Below the pieces are notes generated by a model, which saw only the letters and a program-made list of their open reading frames with translations, had not been told where the DNA came from and made no database searches. Positions 1-12,367 of a DNA stretch of 64,000 bases are shown piece after piece (the first letter of the stretch is position 1; each line of letters begins with the position of its first letter). Source of the stretch: Trypanosoma brucei (Eukaryota); NCBI GenBank assembly GCA_000002445.1, contig CM000208.1:544001-608000 (forward strand), written 5' to 3'. The position numbers were made by a program, and so were the translations under genes.

Positions 1-174
1 TAAGCAATAGCAAAGAAAAAAAAATAACAATATTAAAAAAAGATGAAAATATCATATCAAAAATAATAATAATATTTTACGAAAAAGAAACAAAAAATAT
101 TTAAATATCCTTCTCCCCACGCTATTTAAGTGTTTATTAAAAGTTAACTCTCACGTGAAAGTAAAGTAACAGCC

Positions 175-1525
175 ATGGGAAAGGAAAAGGTGCACATGAA
201 TCTTGTGGTGGTGGGCCACGTCGATGCCGGTAAATCCACTGCAACGGGTCACTTGATCTACAAGTGCGGTGGTATTGACAAACGTACGATCGAGAAGTTC
301 GAGAAAGAAGCTGCCGACATTGGTAAGCGCCTCATTCAAGTACGCATGGGTGCTGGACAAGCTGAAGGCTGAGCGCGAACGTGGTATCACGATCGACATT
401 GCACTGTGGAAATTCGAGTCACCCAAGTCTGTCTTCACTATTATTGATGCTCCTGGGCACCGTGACTTCATCAAGAACATGATCACCGGCACATCGCAAG
501 CCGACGCAGCCATCCTCATCATTGCCTCTGCGCAGGGTGAGTTCGAGGCTGGTATCTCCAAGGATGGACAGACCCGCGAGCACGCGTTGCTGGCCTTCAC
601 TTTGGGTGTGAAGCAGATGGTTGTGTGCTGCAACAAGATGGACGACAAGACTGTGAACTACGGACAGGAGCGGTATGACGAGATTGTGAAGGAGGTGTCT
701 GCTTACATCAAGAAGGTTGGGTACAACGTGGAGAAGGTGCGCTTCGTCCCCATCTCCGGATGGCAGGGCGACAACATGATTGAGAAATCCGAGAAGATGC
801 CATGGTACAAGGGTCCAACGCTCCTGGAGGCACTAGACATGCTGGAGCCACCAGTGCGTCCGAGCGACAAGCCCCTGCGTCTGCCACTGCAGGACGTGTA
901 CAAGATCGGTGGTATTGGCACCGTGCCCGTTGGTCGTGTGGAGACCGGCGTGATGAAGCCTGGTGATGTGGTGACGTTTGCCCCCGCCAACGTGACGACC
1001 GAGGTGAAATCGATCGAGATGCACCACGAGCAGCTCGCTGAGGCGACCCCCGGTGACAACGTCGGCTTTAACGTGAAGAACGTTTCTGTAAAGGACATCC
1101 GCCGTGGCAACGTCTGCGGTAACACCAAGAACGACCCCCCAAAGGAGGCCGCCGACTTCACGGCACAGGTGATCATCCTGAACCACCCCGGACAGATTGG
1201 AAACGGTTATGCGCCCGTGCTGGACTGCCACACATCGCACATTGCCTGCAAGTTCGCGGAGATCGAGTCGAAGATCGACCGTCGCTCTGGCAAGGAGCTG
1301 GAGAAGGCTCCCAAGTCGATCAAGTCTGGCGACGCCGCGATCGTGCGCATGGTGCCGCAGAAGCCTATGTGCGTGGAGGTCTTCAACGACTACGCGCCAC
1401 TCGGCCGCTTTGCCGTGCGTGACATGCGCCAGACCGTCGCTGTCGGTATCATCAAGGCCGTGACCAAGAAGGACGGTTCTGGTGGTAAGGTGACGAAGGC
1501 TGCGGTGAAGGCTTCGAAGAAATAA
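175..1525 (+). pseudogene. TEF1: EF-1 alpha copy 1, disrupted by a 1-nt insertion (extra c near 328; ggtaagCgcctc versus ggtaaggcctc in copies 2 and 3). This is either a frameshifted pseudogene or a sequencing error.
   Basis: The ORF track splits the gene into 175..372 and 269..1525. The sequence is otherwise identical to copies 2 and 3. Confidence 0.6.
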
Positions 1526-2224
1526 ACAATGGTCCCTACCGCGTCACAGCGTATGAAGGCCACATTGCAATTTAGCGTGGGACATTGCATAAATGACGGT
1601 GGTGGGGGTCACTGTTTGAGGGCGTGTCTTAAGCTGGATTGAATGATGTGGTGACGGATCCAAGGAGGTAGAAGAGGATGTAAGGGGTATGAAGGGAAGA
1701 GAAATGGGAAAAGAGATTAAATGATATTAATAGGAAAATGAAAATGATATTTTAGTGCAAAGAAAAAACTATAACAATTAACACTGAATAACTACGGAAA
1801 AGAAAATGAATACTCAATAATAACAATAATAACCAGAATACCACGACTCTGAGCGGAGGTAGATAATATGCTGAGACGAACACAGGAAAAGAAACATAAT
1901 GAGGAGTGGTAATAAGCAATCGTAATGCATCATGATAAAATATTTGTGGGTAGATGACTGCGGAAAAACGTAACACAGCTGGGTTGGTGCTTTTGAAGGA
2001 ATGCTGTTGGCTGCTGTAACGTGAAAATAATGGTGCACCGAGTACAAACCCGCAAGGTGCAAAGGGGGAGTGCAATAAATGAGAAGCTGTAACTCCTAGG
2101 CACAGCTCGACGGTCTCTTAAGTTTGGCATTGCCTCCTCCTTGAATTGGATACGTACACACAAGCCCTTGTGCCGCCGCTTGACGGTGGTGTGGACACGT
2201 ATACCCATATGCATGTCACTGCGC

Positions 2225-2292
2225 CACTCTTCTTTCTTCTTGTTTTTTGTTATCGTCTATTGTGCGTACTGCCGTATACGTTGTTTACTAGG
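2225..2292 (+). promoter_or_regulatory. Polypyrimidine tract plus downstream AG; candidate spliced-leader trans-splice acceptor region for EF-1 alpha copy 2. Equivalent tract at 4400..4475 for copy 3.
   Basis: cactcttctttcttcttgttttttgttatcgtctattgtg followed by ctag about 60 nt upstream of the ATG. This is the typical organisation of trypanosomatid mRNA processing signals. Confidence 0.4.
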
Positions 2293-2351
2293 TCTTCGCT
2301 ATTTAAGTGTTTATTAAAAGTTAACTCTCACGTGAAAGTAAAGTAACAGCC

Positions 2352-3701
2352 ATGGGAAAGGAAAAGGTGCACATGAATCTTGTGGTGGTGGGCCACGTCG
2401 ATGCCGGTAAATCCACTGCAACGGGTCACTTGATCTACAAGTGCGGTGGTATTGACAAACGTACGATCGAGAAGTTCGAGAAAGAAGCTGCCGACATTGG
2501 TAAGGCCTCATTCAAGTACGCATGGGTGCTGGACAAGCTGAAGGCTGAGCGCGAACGTGGTATCACGATCGACATTGCACTGTGGAAATTCGAGTCACCC
2601 AAGTCTGTCTTCACTATTATTGATGCTCCTGGGCACCGTGACTTCATCAAGAACATGATCACCGGCACATCGCAAGCCGACGCAGCCATCCTCATCATTG
2701 CCTCTGCGCAGGGTGAGTTCGAGGCTGGTATCTCCAAGGATGGACAGACCCGCGAGCACGCGTTGCTGGCCTTCACTTTGGGTGTGAAGCAGATGGTTGT
2801 GTGCTGCAACAAGATGGACGACAAGACTGTGAACTACGGACAGGAGCGGTATGACGAGATTGTGAAGGAGGTGTCTGCTTACATCAAGAAGGTTGGGTAC
2901 AACGTGGAGAAGGTGCGCTTCGTCCCCATCTCCGGATGGCAGGGCGACAACATGATTGAGAAATCCGAGAAGATGCCATGGTACAAGGGTCCAACGCTCC
3001 TGGAGGCACTAGACATGCTGGAGCCACCAGTGCGTCCGAGCGACAAGCCCCTGCGTCTGCCACTGCAGGACGTGTACAAGATCGGTGGTATTGGCACCGT
3101 GCCCGTTGGTCGTGTGGAGACCGGCGTGATGAAGCCTGGTGATGTGGTGACGTTTGCCCCCGCCAACGTGACGACCGAGGTGAAATCGATCGAGATGCAC
3201 CACGAGCAGCTCGCTGAGGCGACCCCCGGTGACAACGTCGGCTTTAACGTGAAGAACGTTTCTGTAAAGGACATCCGCCGTGGCAACGTCTGCGGTAACA
3301 CCAAGAACGACCCCCCAAAGGAGGCCGCCGACTTCACGGCACAGGTGATCATCCTGAACCACCCCGGACAGATTGGAAACGGTTATGCGCCCGTGCTGGA
3401 CTGCCACACATCGCACATTGCCTGCAAGTTCGCGGAGATCGAGTCGAAGATCGACCGTCGCTCTGGCAAGGAGCTGGAGAAGGCTCCCAAGTCGATCAAG
3501 TCTGGCGACGCCGCGATCGTGCGCATGGTGCCGCAGAAGCCTATGTGCGTGGAGGTCTTCAACGACTACGCGCCACTCGGCCGCTTTGCCGTGCGTGACA
3601 TGCGCCAGACCGTCGCTGTCGGTATCATCAAGGCCGTGACCAAGAAGGACGGTTCTGGTGGTAAGGTGACGAAGGCTGCGGTGAAGGCTTCGAAGAAATA
3701 A
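2352..3701 (+). CDS. TEF1: Translation elongation factor 1-alpha (449 aa)
   Basis: Full-length ORF with [10 protein letters not shown]1 motif, DAPGH and NKMD GTPase motifs. The protein is identical to copy 3. Confidence 0.95.
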
Positions 3702-4534
3702 ACAATGGTCCCTACCGCGTCACAGCGTATGAAGGCCACATTGCAATTTAGAGTGGGACATTGCATAAATGACGGTGGTGGGGGTCACTGTTTGAGGGCG
3801 TGTCTTAAGCTGGATTGAATGATGTGGTGACGGATCCAAGGAGGTAGAAGAGGATGTAAGGGGTATGAAGGGAAGAGAAATGGGAAAAGAGATTAAATGA
3901 TATTAATAGGAAAATGAAAATGATATTTTAGTGCAAAGAAAAAACTATAACAATTAACACTGAATAACTACGGAAAAGAAAATGAATACTCAATAATAAC
4001 AATAATAACCAGAATACCACGACTCTGAGCGGAGGTAGATAATATGCTGAGACGAACACAGGAAAAGAAACATAATGAGGAGTGGTAATAAGCAATCGTA
4101 ATGCATCATGATAAAATATTTGTGGGTAGATGACTGCGGAAAAACGTAACACAGCTGGGTTGGTGCTTTTGAAGGAATGCTGTTGGCTGCTGTAACGTGA
4201 AAATAATGGTGCACCGAGTACAAACCCGCAAGGTGCAAAGGGGGAGTGCAATAAATGAGAAGCTGTAACTCCTAGGCACAGCTCGACGGTCTCTTAAGTT
4301 TGGCATTGCCTCCTCCTTGAATTGGATACGTACACACAAGCCCTTGTGCCGCCGCTTGACGGTGGTGTGGACACGTATACCCATATGCATGTCACTGCGC
4401 CACTCTTCTTTCTTCTTTCTTCTTGTTTTTTGTTATCGTCTATTGTGCGTACTGCCGTATACGTTGTTTACTAGGTCTTCGCTATTTAAGTGTTTATTAA
4501 AAGTTAACTCTCACGTGAAAGTAAAGTAACAGCC

Positions 4535-5884
4535 ATGGGAAAGGAAAAGGTGCACATGAATCTTGTGGTGGTGGGCCACGTCGATGCCGGTAAATCCACT
4601 GCAACGGGTCACTTGATCTACAAGTGCGGTGGTATTGACAAACGTACGATCGAGAAGTTCGAGAAAGAAGCTGCCGACATTGGTAAGGCCTCATTCAAGT
4701 ACGCATGGGTGCTGGACAAGCTGAAGGCTGAGCGCGAACGTGGTATCACGATCGACATTGCACTGTGGAAATTCGAGTCACCCAAGTCTGTCTTCACTAT
4801 TATTGATGCTCCTGGGCACCGTGACTTCATCAAGAACATGATCACCGGCACATCGCAAGCCGACGCAGCCATCCTCATCATTGCCTCTGCGCAGGGTGAG
4901 TTCGAGGCTGGTATCTCCAAGGATGGACAGACCCGCGAGCACGCGTTGCTGGCCTTCACTTTGGGTGTGAAGCAGATGGTTGTGTGCTGCAACAAGATGG
5001 ACGACAAGACTGTGAACTACGGACAGGAGCGGTATGACGAGATTGTGAAGGAGGTGTCTGCTTACATCAAGAAGGTTGGGTACAACGTGGAGAAGGTGCG
5101 CTTCGTCCCCATCTCCGGATGGCAGGGCGACAACATGATTGAGAAATCCGAGAAGATGCCATGGTACAAGGGTCCAACGCTCCTGGAGGCACTAGACATG
5201 CTGGAGCCACCAGTGCGTCCGAGCGACAAGCCCCTGCGTCTGCCACTGCAGGACGTGTACAAGATCGGTGGTATTGGCACCGTGCCCGTTGGTCGTGTGG
5301 AGACCGGCGTGATGAAGCCTGGTGATGTGGTGACGTTTGCCCCCGCCAACGTGACGACCGAGGTGAAATCGATCGAGATGCACCACGAGCAGCTCGCTGA
5401 GGCGACCCCCGGTGACAACGTCGGCTTTAACGTGAAGAACGTTTCTGTAAAGGACATCCGCCGTGGCAACGTCTGCGGTAACACCAAGAACGACCCCCCA
5501 AAGGAGGCCGCCGACTTCACGGCACAGGTGATCATCCTGAACCACCCCGGACAGATTGGAAACGGTTATGCGCCCGTGCTGGACTGCCACACATCGCACA
5601 TTGCCTGCAAGTTCGCGGAGATCGAGTCGAAGATCGACCGTCGCTCTGGCAAGGAGCTGGAGAAGGCTCCCAAGTCGATCAAGTCTGGCGACGCCGCGAT
5701 CGTGCGCATGGTGCCGCAGAAGCCTATGTGCGTGGAGGTCTTCAACGACTACGCGCCACTCGGCCGCTTTGCCGTGCGTGACATGCGCCAGACCGTCGCT
5801 GTCGGTATCATCAAGGCCGTGACCAAGAAGGACGGTTCTGGTGGTAAGGTGACGAAGGCTGCGGTGAAGGCTTCGAAGAAATAA
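4535..5884 (+). CDS. TEF1: Translation elongation factor 1-alpha (449 aa)
   Basis: Identical protein to copy 2, with the same GTPase motifs. Confidence 0.95.
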
Positions 5885-6438
5885 ACAATGGTCCCTACCG
5901 CGTCACAGCGTATGAAGGCCACATTGCAATTTAGCGTGGGACATTGCATAAATGACGGTGGTGGGGGTCACTGTTTGAGGGCGTGTCTTAAGCTGGATTG
6001 AATGATGTGGTGACGGATCCAAGGAGGTAGAAGAGGATGTAAGGGGTATGAAGGGAAGAGAAATGGGAAAAGAGATTAAATGATATTAATAGGAAAATGA
6101 AAATGATATTTTAGTGCAAAGAAAAAACTATAACAATTAACACTGAATAACTACGGAAAAGAAAATGAATACTCAATAATAACAATAATAACCAGAATAC
6201 CACGACTCTGAGCGGAGGTAGATAATATGCTGAGACGAACACAGGAAAAGAAACATAATGAGGAGTGGTAATAAGCAATCGTAATGCATCATGATAAAAT
6301 ATTTGTGGGTAGATGACTGCGGAAAAACGTAACACAGCTGGGTTGGTGCTTTTGAAGGAATGCTGTTGGCTGCTGTAACGTGAAAATAATGGTGCACCTA
6401 GTAATTTTTTTATTTTTTTCATTTTTTAGTTTTATAGT

Positions 6439-7023: not shown

Positions 7024-7387
7024 CGTGACGGTGTAATGTTCTAAAGCAGTGATGGTGCTGACTGATGTTGTGACGTTTTTTTTTGTTTCTAGCTTGCCGT
7101 AGAATTGAGTTTCTAAATGGGGAGTTTTCAGAGTTTCTACCGTCTGTTTCTGAATTATTTTTGTATATCACCACTTTTCTATTATGTGTACTGGAATAAC
7201 TGGTTCACACTGTCGGTATCGCTTTTCCACCCTCTTATTTCCTTGCGTGTGTTTGCCGTTGTGGATCCAGGGACGTGTATTCGTCAAAAGTCTAACAGGT
7301 AGAGGGGAAGGCGCATACAGGTGCGTTCGTATCATTGGCGTTTTAACATTTTTGCTTTTTGTTCGTTTTCCTAGGTTTGTTAGCGGA

Positions 7388-9913
7388 ATGAAAACAAACA
7401 ACTTGGAGCGTCGCAGACAGATCCGGCAACAACTTCGTGCCTTCTACGGCGATAATTTAACGGCGAAGGATGAACCCGTAACCCGTGAGAGCGGCGAACC
7501 GGATCACAGCAGTGTCAGTATGAACACACGAGTAAATAGTATCCCGCCAGGGTTGGACATGGACTCCGATTCCTTCGACGTGGGGGAGTATACCACGGAG
7601 CTGTTCCGCGTTAAGTCTCTTAAAGGTGTTGTAGAGACGGATGCTTGGCTTGCGCGTACCGCCAGCCGTCTGGAGACGGAGCTGCGTGAACTCGTTTACC
7701 GCAACTATTCCAAGTTTATTTCGGCAACCGACACGATACGAGAGATAAGATCTGATGTCACGGAAATGGGTGGCAGGCTTCACGCCCTATCAGGAAATGT
7801 GGAAAATATTGACGATGTGTCGAAGGACGTGAGCGGGAAACTTCAGGAACACCGAAGTCGCATTGAGAAGGTGATCACAAAACACCGGATGCTCCGGAAG
7901 GCTCAGTTTTTGGTCGGACTTGCCGACACCATGCGGCTCCACATGGAGCGGAAAGAGCACAGTGAGTGCGTGCGCAAATGGGTAATGGGCGACAGCTTCA
8001 TTGCTAAGCACGCAAACATTCCAAAGATGGCAATTGTTCACAAGGAATGCAAAGAGCTTGCTATGCATCTGTATGGTGTTTTACGAGAGGAGGTGCTAAG
8101 TGTCTCCATGGAAAATCCTGACGCCTCAGAGGTAATCCGTCGGATCGTGGGAGAGCTACGTCTCTTGCGAGCTACCTCAATATTTGGTGAAGATAAGGAG
8201 ATAACGCCTCATGCAGGTACAGATGGCGCGTTGGCCCCGTTTGAGGAGGAAATATTGAGTGTCTTGAAAATAAATGTTAGGGAAGCTTTTGTCGTTGCTG
8301 TTCGGAGCTTTAATGCCACCATAGAAGCGGCGCTGCTAATTCCGGGTCTTTCTGAAATGCACCTTGAAGAGAGAGCAGGTGTCCTCATGCGCCCACGGTT
8401 GCAGGAGGCTTTGGCGCAGTTGAAAAGTTCACTTGCAATTTTTCACTCCGGCAGCGAGCAGCTGTGTAGTTTGTTCAATCAAAGGGATGAATCTGCTTTC
8501 TCCAAGTATATTATCGAAGAGGTGGAGCCGGTCCTGACGGATACTATTGTGGCAATTACAACACCCCTTGGTAACCTGCTTGTTGCCATTGTGGATGCTA
8601 TCGCAAAAGACGGCAGTAGCCTGTTAGGTTCACCTGCCACGGTGCAGACTGATCTCTCAACGGTTTTCACCACCCTCGCTAAACATCTCATGCACTACTC
8701 AACAACAATGAAGGGACTGGGCGTCACATACCTCAACAGTGCCATGAACCAACATAGTGAAAAGTATGCCGAGATGGTCGACAAGTCCGTGTTGGGCGTC
8801 TTACTCAAGTTTGTGAACTACTTGGAGACGCATGTTACGGAGACAAACGATGCACAAAAGACGAAATTGGGTGATGATAATGCAAGTGATCCACAAAAAC
8901 AACAGGAGGTATGCTTTAATATGTGCCTCTCGCGGTTTGTACTCGCCAACGCAGCTGTGGCGGCGGATCTGAAAAGCGTTTCAGCCATTATTGAAAGTGT
9001 TACCTCCAGGCGATCTGAGTTGATTGACCTTCAGAAGAAAAACGCTCGCCTCACCCGAGCTCTCTTGCGACGCGGCATTGTGCTCTCTGGTCAATTTTTC
9101 CTCAACTCTGCGCTGCCTGCCTTTTCCCCAGCAACCGCAGTTGATCCCTCAGCGAGCACAGCCTCCGAGCATGGAGGTATTGCCGTGTGCCTGCGCAACA
9201 CCGTTGTGAGGTTAGGCGAACTATACAACTTTTTGAAACAAGGTGTTGTGCCGAGCGTTGACGACGGCAACACCAAATGTGCCTCCCCACCTGCAGAGAA
9301 ACATCGCGGAAACGACAGCGCAAGTGGAAGCACGGCTGGAGGAAGCCAGTTATTATATAGCGCACCCGGTAGTGGACGCAATGCTGGAGCCACGAGGGCG
9401 ACACGGTTGGCGGTATGCTTTACGCGAAAAAAAGAAGATGCCCTACAAGCCAGTGTCGAGCGGATTTTCTCAAAGCAGTCACAGAACAATGCGGTACTTC
9501 AGACGATGCCACTTGAGTTCCGCGCGGCCTCCGTTGTAGCGGCAATTGCGGTTTATCTGGTGAAGGGTATTGTTGAATATGTGCGACGGGTGACCTTTAC
9601 GCGCTGTGGATTCCAGTGCGTGCAGACAAGCTGCACGTTTTTGCTCCATGCTTTCACCCCCACGGCACTGACATCGTCATCACCTGCTGGGACCAGTCAG
9701 AGTTTAAAAGTAACTGTCTCATTGGAGGAGTGGCTAAGTGATTGTGGCGATGAGCGGCTGTTGAAGGGGTTGCCATTTCTTCTTAATGAATGCTGTACCT
9801 GCGCATATGAGCGTTGTGGAGAGAAAGTACCTCTCACGGCGGTGGTGGTTGAACGGTTAGTGCGGTCTGTCTTGGAAGAGATGGAGGGCGTGTCGGTATC
9901 TGCCGAAGCCTAA
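7388..9913 (+). CDS. VPS51: Vps51 (GARP complex subunit) homologue, about 841 aa. The ORF track starts upstream at an alternative start codon; the first ATG is at 7388.
   Basis: N-terminal segment LETELRELVYRNYSKFISATDTIREI matches the signature of the Vps51/Vps67 family (human VPS51 has LVYENYNKFISATDTIRKM). Confidence 0.7.
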   Translation: MKTNNLERRRQIRQQLRAFYGDNLTAKDEPVTRESGEPDHSSVSMNTRVNSIPPGLDMDSDSFDVGEYTTELFRVKSLKGVVETDAWLARTASRLETELRELVYRNYSKFISATDTIREIRSDVTEMGGRLHALSGNVENIDDVSKDVSGKLQEHRSRIEKVITKHRMLRKAQFLVGLADTMRLHMERKEHSECVRKWVMGDSFIAKHANIPKMAIVHKECKELAMHLYGVLREEVLSVSMENPDASEVIRRIVGELRLLRATSIFGEDKEITPHAGTDGALAPFEEEILSVLKINVREAFVVAVRSFNATIEAALLIPGLSEMHLEERAGVLMRPRLQEALAQLKSSLAIFHSGSEQLCSLFNQRDESAFSKYIIEEVEPVLTDTIVAITTPLGNLLVAIVDAIAKDGSSLLGSPATVQTDLSTVFTTLAKHLMHYSTTMKGLGVTYLNSAMNQHSEKYAEMVDKSVLGVLLKFVNYLETHVTETNDAQKTKLGDDNASDPQKQQEVCFNMCLSRFVLANAAVAADLKSVSAIIESVTSRRSELIDLQKKNARLTRALLRRGIVLSGQFFLNSALPAFSPATAVDPSASTASEHGGIAVCLRNTVVRLGELYNFLKQGVVPSVDDGNTKCASPPAEKHRGNDSASGSTAGGSQLLYSAPGSGRNAGATRATRLAVCFTRKKEDALQASVERIFSKQSQNNAVLQTMPLEFRAASVVAAIAVYLVKGIVEYVRRVTFTRCGFQCVQTSCTFLLHAFTPTALTSSSPAGTSQSLKVTVSLEEWLSDCGDERLLKGLPFLLNECCTCAYERCGEKVPLTAVVVERLVRSVLEEMEGVSVSAEA

Positions 9914-10303
9914 CTTTCCTTTGTGACCGCTTCTTCATGCTATTTGATTTTCTGCTTTTACTCATTTACGTAGTGGTATTCTGTCATCTAATCTGCAGAG
10001 GGCAGAATATCATTCATTACTTCCGTTAGTCCCTTGTTGCTGTTGGTGAAGGTGATTTGGACTCATTGTCTCATGTTTTTGTTCCAGTGGAACGCTTCCC
10101 GCGGCGTCCGCCGTCTAACCTTTTTGTTTTTCCCTCTTGCTTGCAAAAAAATTTGGTTCAGCAAAGTGGGGGAAATTGCGAAGGGGAAAGTCTGATCAAA
10201 GCGTTTGCAGTTGGTTTTGCTTGCAGGTGAGGATCCAGTCAATCGTTTCGCAAGTTGAAGAAAGGAATTAACGGAAAAGAAAGTACATATATTATTGGAA
10301 AAA

Positions 10304-11743
10304 ATGTACCGTACAACCCCATTCCGAGCCATTTCACAATATAACTTTGGGCAGCCACCTTTATAGCAGGGATTTCGTTTCCTTTCTGTGGAACGCTCTC
10401 CTGTTGTCGCCGGCCAACTACAGGAATCAAGATCGTCAAACGGCGTACGTATTGTTTCTCATGATTTTGACGGTGCCCACACAGCAGTTGCAGTATACGT
10501 CGATGCTGGTCCGAAATACGACCCACTTGCCTGCCCCGGACTCAGTTACGTGATGCAGTATGCGCTGCAAACATCAAACACGAATAGTTCCCTCTTCCAG
10601 TTGGACCGCACAATGCGTTCCACGGGTAATGCTTATGGACATGGTGAGGTTCGTAAGCGATTCCTCACCTGGAAGGCGGAGGGCCGACGTGACATGTGGG
10701 AACGGCCATTTGAGATGATCGCTACTGGGGTGGTGGCCCCACGTTTTCACGAAAGCGATGTGGAGAGGTTCCGTGATACCATGGACAATCAACTTGAGGA
10801 ACTCCGTTGGCAGAACCCACGAGAGTACTGCACCGACGCCGTTGAAACGGTTGCCTTCTTCAAGGAACCACTTGGTTCTCCGCGCATGGTATCGACAGCG
10901 GCCAACGGGCGCTGCGACGGGAAGGCGCTTTTGAATCACTAGGCAACCCATTTTCATCCCAGAAAAGTGACTATCGCCGCAGTAAACGTACAACACGACG
11001 CGCTACTAGCGGCGTATGAGGCGCTTCCGTTTCCCCACAGTGCCGAAGCTCCGCACCATGCGGCGAGCCCTGCATCAACCCTTTCCCATAAAGGCGAAGC
11101 CCAACAGTTCCACCCCGGTCGCCACGAAGTGATCTATGAGGACCGTGCCAAAGTTATGGGAACTCTACCGGATATGAACGAGGACGTGATCGCGGCTATA
11201 GCGGTACCAACTTATGGTTGCGACGAGGATGTAAAAAAGTATGTGTTAGCGCTGGTAACGTACGAAATTTATCAAGTCACTGTTGAACGGACAACGCCAG
11301 TCGGTGCAAATCCGGTGAAGGGCGTGAAGGCGTTCTACCGTCCGTATGCGTCTACCGGTCTTATTGGGTGTACGCTTCGTGGCTCACCTGATGAGATGGA
11401 CGGTCTCCTACACCTAGCGGTTGAGAGTCTTCCAATTAGTGTGTCAGAGGCTGACGTAAAATTAGGTCGCACCCGCGCAATAGCTTCCTTCAAGCGCGCC
11501 CACTTGGAGACGATGGGTGATTACTGTGACTTTATCGGTACGTCATACTTTGATCAAAAGGGACTCATTGAAGAAATTGGAAAAGTAACAGTGGCGGATT
11601 TAGAGGTGACGCTGAACGCAACTGCCTCGGTTGCGCCCGCTGTGTACGTGATCGGCTCAACCTTTACATTTCCGAAACTGCGCAGCCTCAAAAGGGTAAA
11701 GCAGTCTGACTATTATAACTTTATTGGACGATTTGGCGGGTGA
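10304..11743 (+). pseudogene. M16 (insulinase/MPP-like) peptidase-family gene interrupted by two in-frame TAG codons (10364-10366 and 10940-10942). The zinc-binding HxxEH site is degenerate (SYVMQ).
   Basis: One frame carries ATG(10304) MYRTTPFRAISQ..., then TAG, then GVRIVSHDFDGAHTAVAVYVDAGPKYDP (M16 N-terminal domain), then KALLNH, TAG, ATHFHPRKVTIAAVNVQHDALL (M16 central conserved region), ending at TGA 11743. There is no in-frame ATG before the conserved domain unless the TAG at 10364 is read through. Confidence 0.55.
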
Positions 11744-12367
11744 CATTAAAGTGTCACAAAGGAAGAATCTCAAGGGCTTCAGCTTACTTGTTTATTTTTT
11801 CTCACATTGAAAGCGACCAGTGGTCCACGCTTGATGAATTATTGTTTTCTTGGGCGCGTTCGATTTAACCGTCCACCCTTATTTGTTCACTCAATTTTCA
11901 TGCGACTTGGATCGCCGTAGTTGTTGACTCCTTCCTCTGGCCGTCGGTTCGTTAGTACGCACAATGTCCAAGTGACTGTTTGTCTAACTAAGTTCAAATC
12001 TCTCAGTTATGGATACAAGCAAACACTTTGGTGAATCCTGTTGTATATATTTTTTGGCTCGGTATAATCACTAGTTTATTTACATCTTTCGCATCGGCAA
12101 ACTTACCGTCTCCCCCCATCTGTATATAAAGATAAACATGTGTCGACATATTTCGACATATATATTATATATTTTTCCCAAGTGTGTATTCCACGAATAT
12201 GCGGCTTTTCTTCCCTCGTCGTCCCTTATTTTGTTGTTTGTTCCCTCCCTACTAACTACCTGTGCGTTGGTTTGATTCTTTTTCATCATTGCAGGGGCGG
12301 AGGTACTCTTCGCCCTAGGAGCCCTGGTGCTGACAGCGGAAAAAGTGAAAACTCTGTTGGCTCTTTC

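What the first reader, a model, noticed from the sequence alone, without database searches (positions are those of the whole stretch)
10304..11743. M16 peptidase-like gene with two in-frame TAG codons and a degenerate active site
One reading frame encodes a recognisable M16 family protein, with N-terminal GVRIVS...AVYVDAGPKYDP and central HFHPRKVTIAAVNVQHDALL blocks. That frame is interrupted by TAG at 10364-10366, between a presequence-like MYRTTPFRAISQYNFGQPPL and the mature domain. It is interrupted again by TAG at 10940-10942, exactly inside the conserved central region (KALLNH, TAG, ATHFHP). No in-frame ATG exists before the conserved domain unless the first TAG is read through. The HxxEH zinc site is replaced by SYVMQ. 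Every other gene in the window terminates normally, so a genome-wide stop-codon reassignment is unlikely. This looks like a recently decayed pseudogene of a non-catalytic M16 protein (MPP-alpha or bc1 core-like). It could alternatively reflect programmed readthrough or assembly errors. Both interruptions are TAG and the rest of the frame is fully open over about 480 codons, which makes this worth checking.
Basis: partly seen in the sequence, partly recalled or inferred. Interest (0 to 1): 0.6.

Follow-up and report, generated by a model that had tools for sequence, protein, structure and literature searches.

The report
Known M16 pseudogene in T. brucei
This is Tb927.10.2140, an already recorded dead copy of a non-catalytic mitochondrial 'core protein 2-like' M16 gene in Trypanosoma brucei; two real TAG stop codons interrupt it, so it is ordinary recent gene decay, not recoding or a sequencing error.

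Summary
The frame 10304-11743 (+) encodes a full-length M16-family protein. It is interrupted only by TAG at 10364-10366 (codon 21) and TAG at 10940-10942 (codon 214). The window is T. brucei brucei TREU927 chromosome 10. The locus lies two genes downstream of U1-C (Tb927.10.2120), which fits Tb927.10.2140, the 'single putative pseudogene' of Mach et al. 2013 (PMC3673636). Both TAGs are present in three other Trypanozoon assemblies, so they are not errors. Codon 214 is TGG (Trp) in T. grayi, T. theileri and T. cruzi, one transition away from TAG. These species keep an intact 464-466 aa gene at the same position (U1-C, Vps51, M16, MCU). Differences among the T. brucei-group assemblies are 15 nonsynonymous to 3 synonymous, against 4:7 in neighbouring Vps51. 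That pattern means neutral drift. There are no indels, and the protein is still better conserved than its intact neighbours, so the decay is recent. T. vivax has lost the gene completely. The family is a 41%-identical paralogue of bc1 core protein 2 (Tb11.02.1480). It has no HxxEH motif and no glycine-rich loop in any orthologue checked. Readthrough and assembly error are rejected. Already known; low interest.

The parts
10304..11743 (+). Whole pseudogene (Tb927.10.2140): a 480-codon frame homologous end to end to the 464-467 aa core-protein-2-like M16 proteins of other kinetoplastids
   Evidence: It is 66% identical to T. grayi P0001 over 97% of its length. The syntenic position is shown.
10304..10363 (+). 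Conserved N-terminus (MYRTTPFRAISQYNFGQPPL), including the presequence-like start; the first stop cuts it off from the rest of the protein
   Evidence: Alignment A1: M1, R3, I10, Y13, F15, G16, Q17, P18 and L20 are invariant across 8 species.
10364..10366 (+). Premature stop 1 (TAG, codon 21)
   Evidence: It is present in L004, L005 and L006. Orthologues have GCG, ACA or ACG here, and the residue is variable (A/T/K/S).
10547..10561 (+). Position of the M16 HxxEH zinc motif, here YVMQY (degenerate, non-catalytic)
   Evidence: the orthologue's HVMRY aligns with HLLER of Arabidopsis alpha-MPP. No HxxEH is found in the five family proteins checked: four orthologues (T. grayi, T. cruzi, L. major, Bodo) and T. 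brucei cp2. Codon 85 is polymorphic, Q or K, where all 31 orthologues have R.
10940..10942 (+). Premature stop 2 (TAG, codon 214), derived from TGG (Trp) by one G-to-A transition
   Evidence: TGG is found in T. grayi, T. theileri and T. cruzi. The residue is W in 6 of the 7 aligned orthologues and Y in Bodo. The TAG is present in L004, L005 and L006.
11702..11740 (+). 13-codon C-terminal extension (QSDYYNFIGRFGG) beyond the point where the orthologues stop; CAG stands where T. grayi has TAA
   Evidence: This is weak evidence of decay, because C-terminal length varies slightly among the orthologues.

Best explanation
The locus is a unitary (non-duplicated, non-processed) pseudogene: the T. brucei remnant, at its original chromosomal position, of a nuclear gene for a non-catalytic mitochondrial M16 protein. 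That protein is a paralogue of cytochrome bc1 core protein 2 and is present and intact from Bodo to T. cruzi and Leishmania. In the T. brucei lineage the gene was inactivated by point mutations. One is TGG to TAG at codon 214. A second is a TAG at codon 21, which separates the start codon and targeting sequence from the body of the protein. The original stop may also have been lost. Both stops were fixed before the T. brucei-group haplotypes sampled here diverged. Since then the sequence has drifted neutrally on both haplotypes. It is presumably still transcribed as part of the polycistronic unit, but it can only yield a 20-residue peptide from its own ATG. Shown: the stops are real and shared, orthologues are intact and syntenic, polymorphism is neutral, the decay is recent, and the gene belongs to the core-2-like family. 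Inferred: there is no protein product, the loss was tolerated because the function is dispensable or covered by the chromosome 11 core protein 2, and the T. brucei and T. vivax losses were independent.
For: Identity of the locus: the Vps51 neighbour is 100% identical to the TREU927 protein. The gene order is EF1a (Tb927.10.2100 = TEF1), U1-C (Tb927.10.2120), Vps51, M16. Mach et al. 2013 name Tb927.10.2140 as the single putative pseudogene of this family.
Real stops: both TAGs occur in GCA_003543875.1, GCA_001457755.2 and GCA_000210295.1 as well as in the window.
Orthologues: intact 464-466 aa genes sit between Vps51 and MCU in T. grayi, T. theileri and T. cruzi. Their dN/dS is about 0.06 for T. 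grayi versus T. cruzi. Codon 214 is TGG in all three.
Neutral drift now: there are 18 segregating sites, 15 nonsynonymous and 3 synonymous. This fits the neutral fraction of 0.76 (p=0.59) and rejects a constrained gene (p=1e-5). Vps51 shows 4:7 (Fisher p=0.017). Difference density between TREU927 and DAL972 is 1.18%, against 0.15% in Vps51 (p=1.7e-5). Both haplotypes carry derived changes at columns invariant in 31 orthologues (A314V; V318I; R85 to Q or K). T. brucei has 5 private changes at 93 invariant columns, against 0-2 in the 12 orthologues tested the same way.
Recent decay: there are no indels relative to the Trypanosoma orthologues. The ratio of T. brucei distance to distance among the three stercorarian species is 1.71, the same as for Vps51. 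The sequence is still less diverged in absolute terms than four intact neighbour genes.
TAG is an ordinary stop in this window, ending 5 of 22 other ORFs.
Against: No expression, ribosome-profiling or proteomic data could be examined, so absence of a product is inferred and not shown. Only four assemblies, representing two haplotype groups, were compared, so an intact allele in some unsampled strain is not excluded. However, no intact T. brucei-group protein appeared in the 5.8-billion-protein search. The perfect preservation of the frame (no indel in 1.4 kb) is what a functional readthrough gene would also show; here it is explained by youth. The assignment of the number Tb927.10.2140 rests on gene order and on the paper's statement, not on a direct database look-up.
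Confidence: 0.93

Rival explanations
1. The gene is functional and both TAG codons are decoded, by programmed readthrough or a suppressor tRNA, giving a full-length 479-aa mitochondrial protein.
For: The frame is otherwise perfectly open with no indels. Both interruptions are the same codon. The first TAG is followed by CAG, a partial match to the CARYYA readthrough context (the motif is from my own knowledge).
Against: Polymorphism across the ORF is neutral (N:S 15:3) and includes changes at columns invariant in 31 orthologues. The stops are not conserved: orthologues have TGG and GCG/ACA/ACG. The second TAG is followed by GCA, not a known leaky context. TAG terminates 5 of 22 other ORFs in the window. 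T. vivax has deleted the gene, so the function is dispensable in at least one other salivarian trypanosome.
Confidence: 0.03
2. The TAGs are sequencing or assembly errors in the TREU927 reference, and the real gene is intact.
For: None beyond prior plausibility. The window does contain another possible single-base error, the frameshift in EF1a copy 1.
Against: Both TAGs are present at the same positions in three other separately deposited assemblies. These fall into two haplotype groups that differ at 17 other sites in the ORF.
Confidence: 0.01
3. The locus is a polymorphic or partly functional pseudogene. Either intact alleles persist in some T. brucei populations, or the locus keeps a non-coding role, for example as UTR or spacing for processing of the neighbouring MCU or Vps51 mRNAs.
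For: The decay is young. Only two haplotype groups were sampled. The 1.4-kb body has not been deleted, unlike in T. vivax.
Against: Both deep haplotypes carry both stops. No intact T. brucei-group allele appears among the protein hits, although T. brucei Logan assemblies are represented in the database. Nucleotide diversity in the body (1.18%) is at least as high as in the flanking intergenic DNA (0.49%), so there is no sign of sequence-level constraint.
Confidence: 0.03

Closest known systems
Tb927.10.2140, 'putative pseudogene' of the MPP/core protein family (Mach et al. 2013, Genome Biol Evol, PMC3673636)
   Same: Same organism, chromosome and family. Gene-order numbering fits: TEF1 = Tb927.10.2100 and U1-C = Tb927.10.2120, followed by Vps51 and then this locus. 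I take it to be the same locus.
   Different: The paper only mentions it in one clause. It gives no lesions, no strain comparison, no orthologues and no dating.
T. brucei cytochrome bc1 core protein 2 (cp2/UQCRC2; Tb11.02.1480, XP_828477)
   Same: It is the closest intact T. brucei paralogue. The T. grayi orthologue of the pseudogene is 41% identical to it over the full length (E=5e-121, with identity of the protein). Both lack HxxEH and a glycine-rich loop. They share the N-terminal ISQYxFGQ motif.
   Different: cp2 is about 518-527 aa, with an insertion after the first domain and a longer N-terminus. It lies on chromosome 11 and is intact. The 464-467 aa group is a separate orthologous lineage conserved from Bodo to Trypanosoma.
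Euglena gracilis complex III 'core protein 2' (PDB 8IUF/8IUJ chain QB; He et al. 2024, PMC10884005)
   Same: It is the best solved-structure match for the intact orthologue, aligned over residues 41-445 (E=3.4e-21). It is also the best match for kinetoplastid cp2.
   Different: The alignment is distant. Euglena QB matches both kinetoplastid paralogue groups best. Membership of complex III has not been shown for the 466-aa kinetoplastid protein.
Alpha-MPP proper (e.g. yeast Mas2, PDB 1HR6_A; T. brucei Tb927.2.4110)
   Same: Same M16B fold family, non-catalytic, and public annotations call the orthologues 'mitochondrial processing peptidase alpha subunit'.
   Different: There is no GGPGKG glycine-rich substrate-binding loop in the orthologues checked. 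Alpha-MPPs in the representative search show this loop. Similarity to alpha-MPPs is far weaker (E about 1e-10 to 1e-13) than to core protein 2.

Membership tests
Peptidase family M16 (Pfam PF00675 / PF05193) | N-terminal M16 domain (PF00675) above the gathering score | tested here: met
   33.4 bits against a cut-off of 22.3, E=5e-8, residues 56-195.
Peptidase family M16 (Pfam PF00675 / PF05193) | C-terminal inactive M16 domain (PF05193) | tested here: inconclusive
   There was no PF05193 hit for the window protein at E<=1. Some relatives carry a precomputed PF05193 hit. The orthologue aligns with Euglena core protein 2 across both halves.
Catalytic M16 peptidases (beta-MPP, pitrilysin) | HxxEH zinc-binding motif | tested here: not met
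   The motif is YVMQY in the window and HVMRY or YVMRF in the orthologues. No HxxEH was found in P0001, P0005, P0009, P0043 or P0125. The protein is non-catalytic by ancestry.
Alpha-MPP | Glycine-rich loop (GGGxSFSAGGPGKGM) | tested here: not met
   One search found no GGPGKG and no G-rich run in the orthologues. One search shows the loop in true alpha-MPPs found by the same search.
bc1 core protein 2 (UQCRC2) lineage | Closest sequence relatives are core protein 2 proteins | tested here: met
   The orthologue is 41% identical to T. brucei cp2. The best PDB hit is Euglena core protein 2, with E=3.4e-21.
bc1 core protein 2 (UQCRC2) lineage | Physical subunit of complex III | not testable with these tools
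   This needs tagging and complexome data for the T. cruzi or Leishmania orthologue. I found no paper that cites the L. major or T. cruzi accessions in a functional study.
Unitary pseudogene | Disabling lesions that are real and shared among strains | tested here: met
   Both TAGs are present in four assemblies representing two haplotype groups.
Unitary pseudogene | Intact orthologue at the syntenic position in relatives, under purifying selection | tested here: met
   Searches show the synteny. One search gives dN/dS of about 0.06 for T. grayi versus T. cruzi (dS is near saturation, so the value is rough).
Unitary pseudogene | Neutral substitution pattern since inactivation | tested here: met
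   N:S is 15:3, against 4:7 in Vps51. Both haplotypes carry derived changes at invariant columns.
Unitary pseudogene | No protein product | not testable with these tools
   No proteomic or ribosome-profiling data were accessible.
Programmed stop-codon readthrough / recoding | Stop codon conserved in orthologues, with purifying selection downstream | tested here: not met
   Orthologues have sense codons at both positions. The sequence downstream evolves neutrally.

The most novel reading that the evidence does not exclude
The intact orthologues may define an uncharacterised fifth member of the kinetoplastid MPP/core-protein family. It would be a duplicate of bc1 core protein 2, conserved from Bodo to Leishmania and T. 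cruzi and under strong constraint. Salivarian trypanosomes would then have discarded it at least twice independently: by recent point decay in T. brucei and by clean deletion in T. vivax. No orthologue appears in the T. congolense proteome hits either. This would point to a mitochondrial function that became dispensable with the salivarian life style. It would also mean that the L. major protein listed as 'alpha-MPP' in the literature (XP_001682967) is in fact this paralogue.
Probability: 0.5. Interest if true: 0.3.

Novelty: already known. Interest (0 to 1): 0.12.

Why it matters
It matters little in itself. The locus is a published, database-numbered pseudogene, and the two TAGs are ordinary nonsense mutations. 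It shows no recoding, no readthrough and no problem with the reference assembly. The modest added value has three parts. First, the lesions are now documented: TGG to TAG at codon 214, a second TAG at codon 21, and possible stop loss. They are fixed across two deep T. brucei-group haplotypes and are evolutionarily young. Second, the gene that died is a paralogue of bc1 core protein 2 rather than an alpha-MPP. Its intact orthologues in T. cruzi and Leishmania are uncharacterised. Its loss in both T. brucei and T. vivax suggests lineage-specific dispensability, which could guide functional work on the orthologues. Third, it gives a caution for annotation transfer: these proteins are widely labelled 'MPP alpha subunit' although they lack the defining glycine-rich loop.

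Tried and rejected
1. T. congolense syntenic locus. The T. congolense Vps51 (P0082) is not on any contig in the collection, and T. congolense proteins appear only from UniRef/nr without DNA. Its state could therefore not be determined. I ran no further search on this because success looked unlikely.
2. dN/dS on the T. brucei branch. dS is saturated against all outgroups. I used dN ratios, amino-acid distance ratios against four neighbour genes and within-species N:S counts instead.
3. Search of 1.84 billion representatives with the T. grayi orthologue. It shows a tight clade (30 representatives below 1e-30) and then generic M16B proteins. I could not pick out a kinetoplastid alpha-MPP among the hits that carry a glycine-rich loop. 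Whether Leishmania has a separate orthologue of Tb927.2.4110 therefore stays open.
4. Literature look-ups by accession for the L. major and T. cruzi orthologues found nothing beyond Mach et al.. Tb927.10.2140 occurs in one paper only.
5. Rfam and tandem repeats found nothing. A bacterial promoter/terminator scan gave only a single chance-level promoter-like match and is not relevant to a trypanosome.
6. tblastn and blastn of the T. brucei pseudogene against the T. vivax Vps51-MCU spacer found no remnant (E>=0.1).
7. Genome-wide TAG reassignment is rejected, because TAG terminates 5 of 22 other ORFs. Selenocysteine and pyrrolysine are rejected on general grounds: Sec uses UGA, no eukaryotic Pyl system is known, and the ancestral codon is Trp.

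Full report
**1. What is in the sequence**

The stretch 10304-11743 on the + strand reads as one frame of 480 codons. It starts with ATG and ends with TGA at 11741-11743. It is interrupted only by TAG at 10364-10366 (codon 21) and TAG at 10940-10942 (codon 214). Random sequence of this length would carry about 22 stops.

Pfam PF00675 (Peptidase_M16) matches residues 56-195 above its gathering score (33.4 against 22.3 bits, E=5e-8). PF05193 did not match. There is no in-frame ATG between codon 22 and codon 84, so a product containing the conserved N-terminal part of the domain would need the first TAG to be read through.

The HxxEH position is occupied by YVMQY (10547-10561).

**2. Where the window comes from and what the locus is called**

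- The 909-aa ORF just upstream (7184-9913) is 100% identical to a T. brucei brucei TREU927 Vps51-like protein on a 4.05-Mb contig.
- All long ORFs lie on one strand, as in a trypanosomatid polycistronic unit.
- The gene order is EF1-alpha array, a 194-aa zf-U1 protein, Vps51, the M16 frame, an MCU-family gene, RPAP2.
- Published tables give Tb927.10.2100 as TEF1 and Tb927.10.2120 as U1-C. In the step-10 numbering, the M16 frame two genes further on falls on Tb927.10.2140.
- Mach et al. [quoted passage not shown]

The locus is therefore already recorded as a pseudogene. That paper says nothing more about it, and no other paper in the library mentions the identifier.

**3. The stops are real**

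Using the identical EF1-alpha protein as a handle, I fetched the same region from three other Trypanozoon assemblies:
- GCA_003543875.1 (L004);
- GCA_001457755.2 (L005), which I recall as T. equiperdum OVI;
- GCA_000210295.1 / FN554973.1 (L006), which I recall as T. b. gambiense DAL972.

All three carry TAG at both positions. They fall into two haplotype groups: the window with L005, and L004 with L006. The window and L006, one from each group, differ at 17 other sites within the ORF. The shared stops are therefore not copies of one error. Sequencing or assembly error is rejected.

**4. Orthologues are intact and syntenic**

The conceptual protein finds full-length 464-467 aa proteins:

| Species | Identity |
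|---|---|
| T. grayi | 66% (E=5.8e-203) |
| T. rangeli, T. theileri, T. cruzi | 62-63% |
| Leishmania, Leptomonas and related genera | about 55% |
| Bodo saltans | 41% |

No T. brucei, T. congolense or T. vivax protein appears in this group.

In T. grayi (L011), T. theileri (L012) and T. cruzi (L013, L014) the gene sits exactly between Vps51 and the next gene downstream, annotated as MCU in T. grayi and T. cruzi. It is a positional orthologue.

- Codon 214 is TGG in all three species, so the second stop is a single G-to-A transition.
- Codon 21 is GCG, ACA or ACG, a variable position.
- The orthologues end ...SLKKVK-stop, whereas the window continues for 13 more codons. CAG stands where T. grayi has TAA. 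This is a possible third lesion but weak evidence.
- There are no indels relative to the Trypanosoma orthologues.

**5. Selection tests**

*Polymorphism among the four assemblies.* The M16 frame has 18 segregating sites, 15 nonsynonymous and 3 synonymous. Vps51, next door and twice as long, has 11 sites, 4 nonsynonymous and 7 synonymous (Fisher p=0.017). The ratio 15:3 fits the neutral expectation of about 76% nonsynonymous (p=0.59). It rejects the roughly 32% expected for a gene with dN/dS near 0.15 (p=1e-5).

*Difference density, TREU927 against L006.*

| Region | Difference density |
|---|---|
| M16 frame | 1.18% |
| Vps51 | 0.15% (p=1.7e-5 against M16) |
| Flanking intergenic DNA | 0.49% (p=0.08 against M16) |

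*Changes at conserved columns.*
- Both haplotypes carry derived replacements at columns invariant in 31 orthologues. Examples are A314V on the TREU927 haplotype, V318I on the other, and R85 replaced by Q on one and K on the other.
- T. brucei has 5 private changes at 93 invariant columns, against 0-2 for each of the 12 orthologues tested the same way.

The sequence is no longer under protein-level constraint.

**6. The decay is recent**

dS against every outgroup is saturated, so I compared non-synonymous and amino-acid distances instead.

- The ratio of mean T. brucei-to-stercorarian distance to mean distance among the three stercorarian species (T. grayi, T. theileri, T. cruzi) is 1.71 for M16. 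It is 1.71 for Vps51 and 1.15-1.36 for MCU, RPAP2 and U1-C.
- In absolute terms the M16 frame (34-38% amino-acid differences) is still better conserved than all four intact neighbours (46-65%).
- There are only two nonsense codons and no indel in 1.4 kb.

Together these points mean the gene was under purifying selection for nearly all of the T. brucei lineage. It died shortly before the sampled haplotypes split. The orthologues are strongly constrained (dN/dS about 0.06 for T. grayi versus T. cruzi).

**7. Other salivarian trypanosomes**

In a T. vivax contig (L010), Vps51 is followed by MCU after only 790 nt. Neither tblastn nor blastn finds any M16 remnant there. No T. vivax member of the 466-aa group exists among the protein hits, although its core protein 2 is found.

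The gene has been deleted outright in T. vivax. Because the T. brucei copy was constrained until recently, the two losses are most simply independent. This is an inference.

T. congolense also lacks an orthologue among the hits, although its cp2 and Vps51 are present.

**8. What the gene was**

- The second group of hits (about 518-527 aa, 35-38% identical to the window) contains XP_828477. This is Tb11.02.1480, the T. brucei bc1 core protein 2 of Mach et al..
- The T. grayi orthologue of the pseudogene is 41% identical to it over the full length (E=5e-121).
- The best solved structure for both groups is Euglena gracilis complex III 'core protein 2' (8IUF chain QB; E=3.4e-21 and 3e-16).
- Neither group has HxxEH or the GGPGKG glycine-rich loop that defines alpha-MPP. 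True alpha-MPPs recovered by the exhaustive search do have the loop, and they score only about 1e-13.

The dead gene is therefore a kinetoplastid-wide duplicate of core protein 2. It was non-catalytic by ancestry, and it is not an alpha-MPP in the strict sense despite its public names. Its cellular role in T. cruzi or Leishmania is not documented in the papers I could search.

**9. Rivals**

- *Programmed readthrough or recoding.* This is contradicted by the neutral polymorphism, by sense codons in the orthologues, by the ordinary use of TAG as terminator (5 of 22 other ORFs) and by the deletion in T. vivax. Only the first TAG has a partial CAR context.
- *Assembly error.* Excluded.
- *A polymorphic pseudogene or a residual non-coding role.* This cannot be fully excluded with four assemblies, but nothing supports it.

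**10. Verdict**

The locus is the already recorded pseudogene Tb927.10.2140. It is a young unitary pseudogene of a core-protein-2-like M16 gene. Novelty: already known. Interest is low. The only mildly new points are the documented lesions and their fixation, the recent date, the separate loss in T. vivax, and the family assignment to the core-2 lineage rather than alpha-MPP.

Noticed in passing
window 175-1525 (insertion at about 328): The first EF1-alpha copy of the array carries a 1-nt insertion (GGTAAGCGC against GGTAAGGC in copies 2 and 3). This shifts the frame after about codon 51. Copies at 2352-3701 and 4535-5884 are 100% identical intact 449-aa ORFs. It is either a frameshifted copy or a single-base error in the reference.
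   Followed up: partly
L010 2774-3562 (T. vivax, GCA_019425475.1): In T. vivax, Vps51 is followed directly by the MCU-family gene after 790 nt, with no detectable remnant of the M16 gene. The whole gene has been deleted in a second salivarian lineage.
   Followed up: partly
P0009 = L. major XP_001682967 (orthologue of window 10304-11743): The Fig. 2 legend of Mach et al. 2013 lists XP_001682967 as the L. major alpha-MPP. That accession is the 467-aa orthologue of the T. brucei pseudogene. It lacks a glycine-rich loop, and the T. grayi member of its group is 41% identical to core protein 2. This may be a mislabel. Alternatively Leishmania may use this protein as its MPP partner. The question is unresolved.
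   Followed up: partly
window 10304-11743 against flanks 9914-10303 and 11744-12367: Divergence between the two T. brucei-group haplotypes is 1.18% inside the pseudogene but 0.49% in the flanking intergenic DNA (p=0.08). The window groups with GCA_001457755.2, and DAL972 groups with GCA_003543875.1. The excess over the flanks is not explained; it may be chance or constraint on the UTRs.
   Followed up: no
window 1-6400; L001-L006: The copy number of the EF1-alpha tandem array differs between assemblies. There are three copies in the window. At least six full copies plus a 168-aa fragment occur in GCA_003543875.1. One full copy is annotated in the fetched stretch of GCA_001457755.2. DAL972 has two full copies plus a 166-aa fragment.
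   Followed up: no
window 7184-7390: The 909-aa Vps51 ORF, annotated at that length in TREU927, probably starts too far upstream. Orthologues are 805-852 aa and begin MSAGSTERRQRIR.... This aligns with the internal MKTNNLERRRQIR of T. brucei at codon 69 (ATG at about 7388).
   Followed up: no
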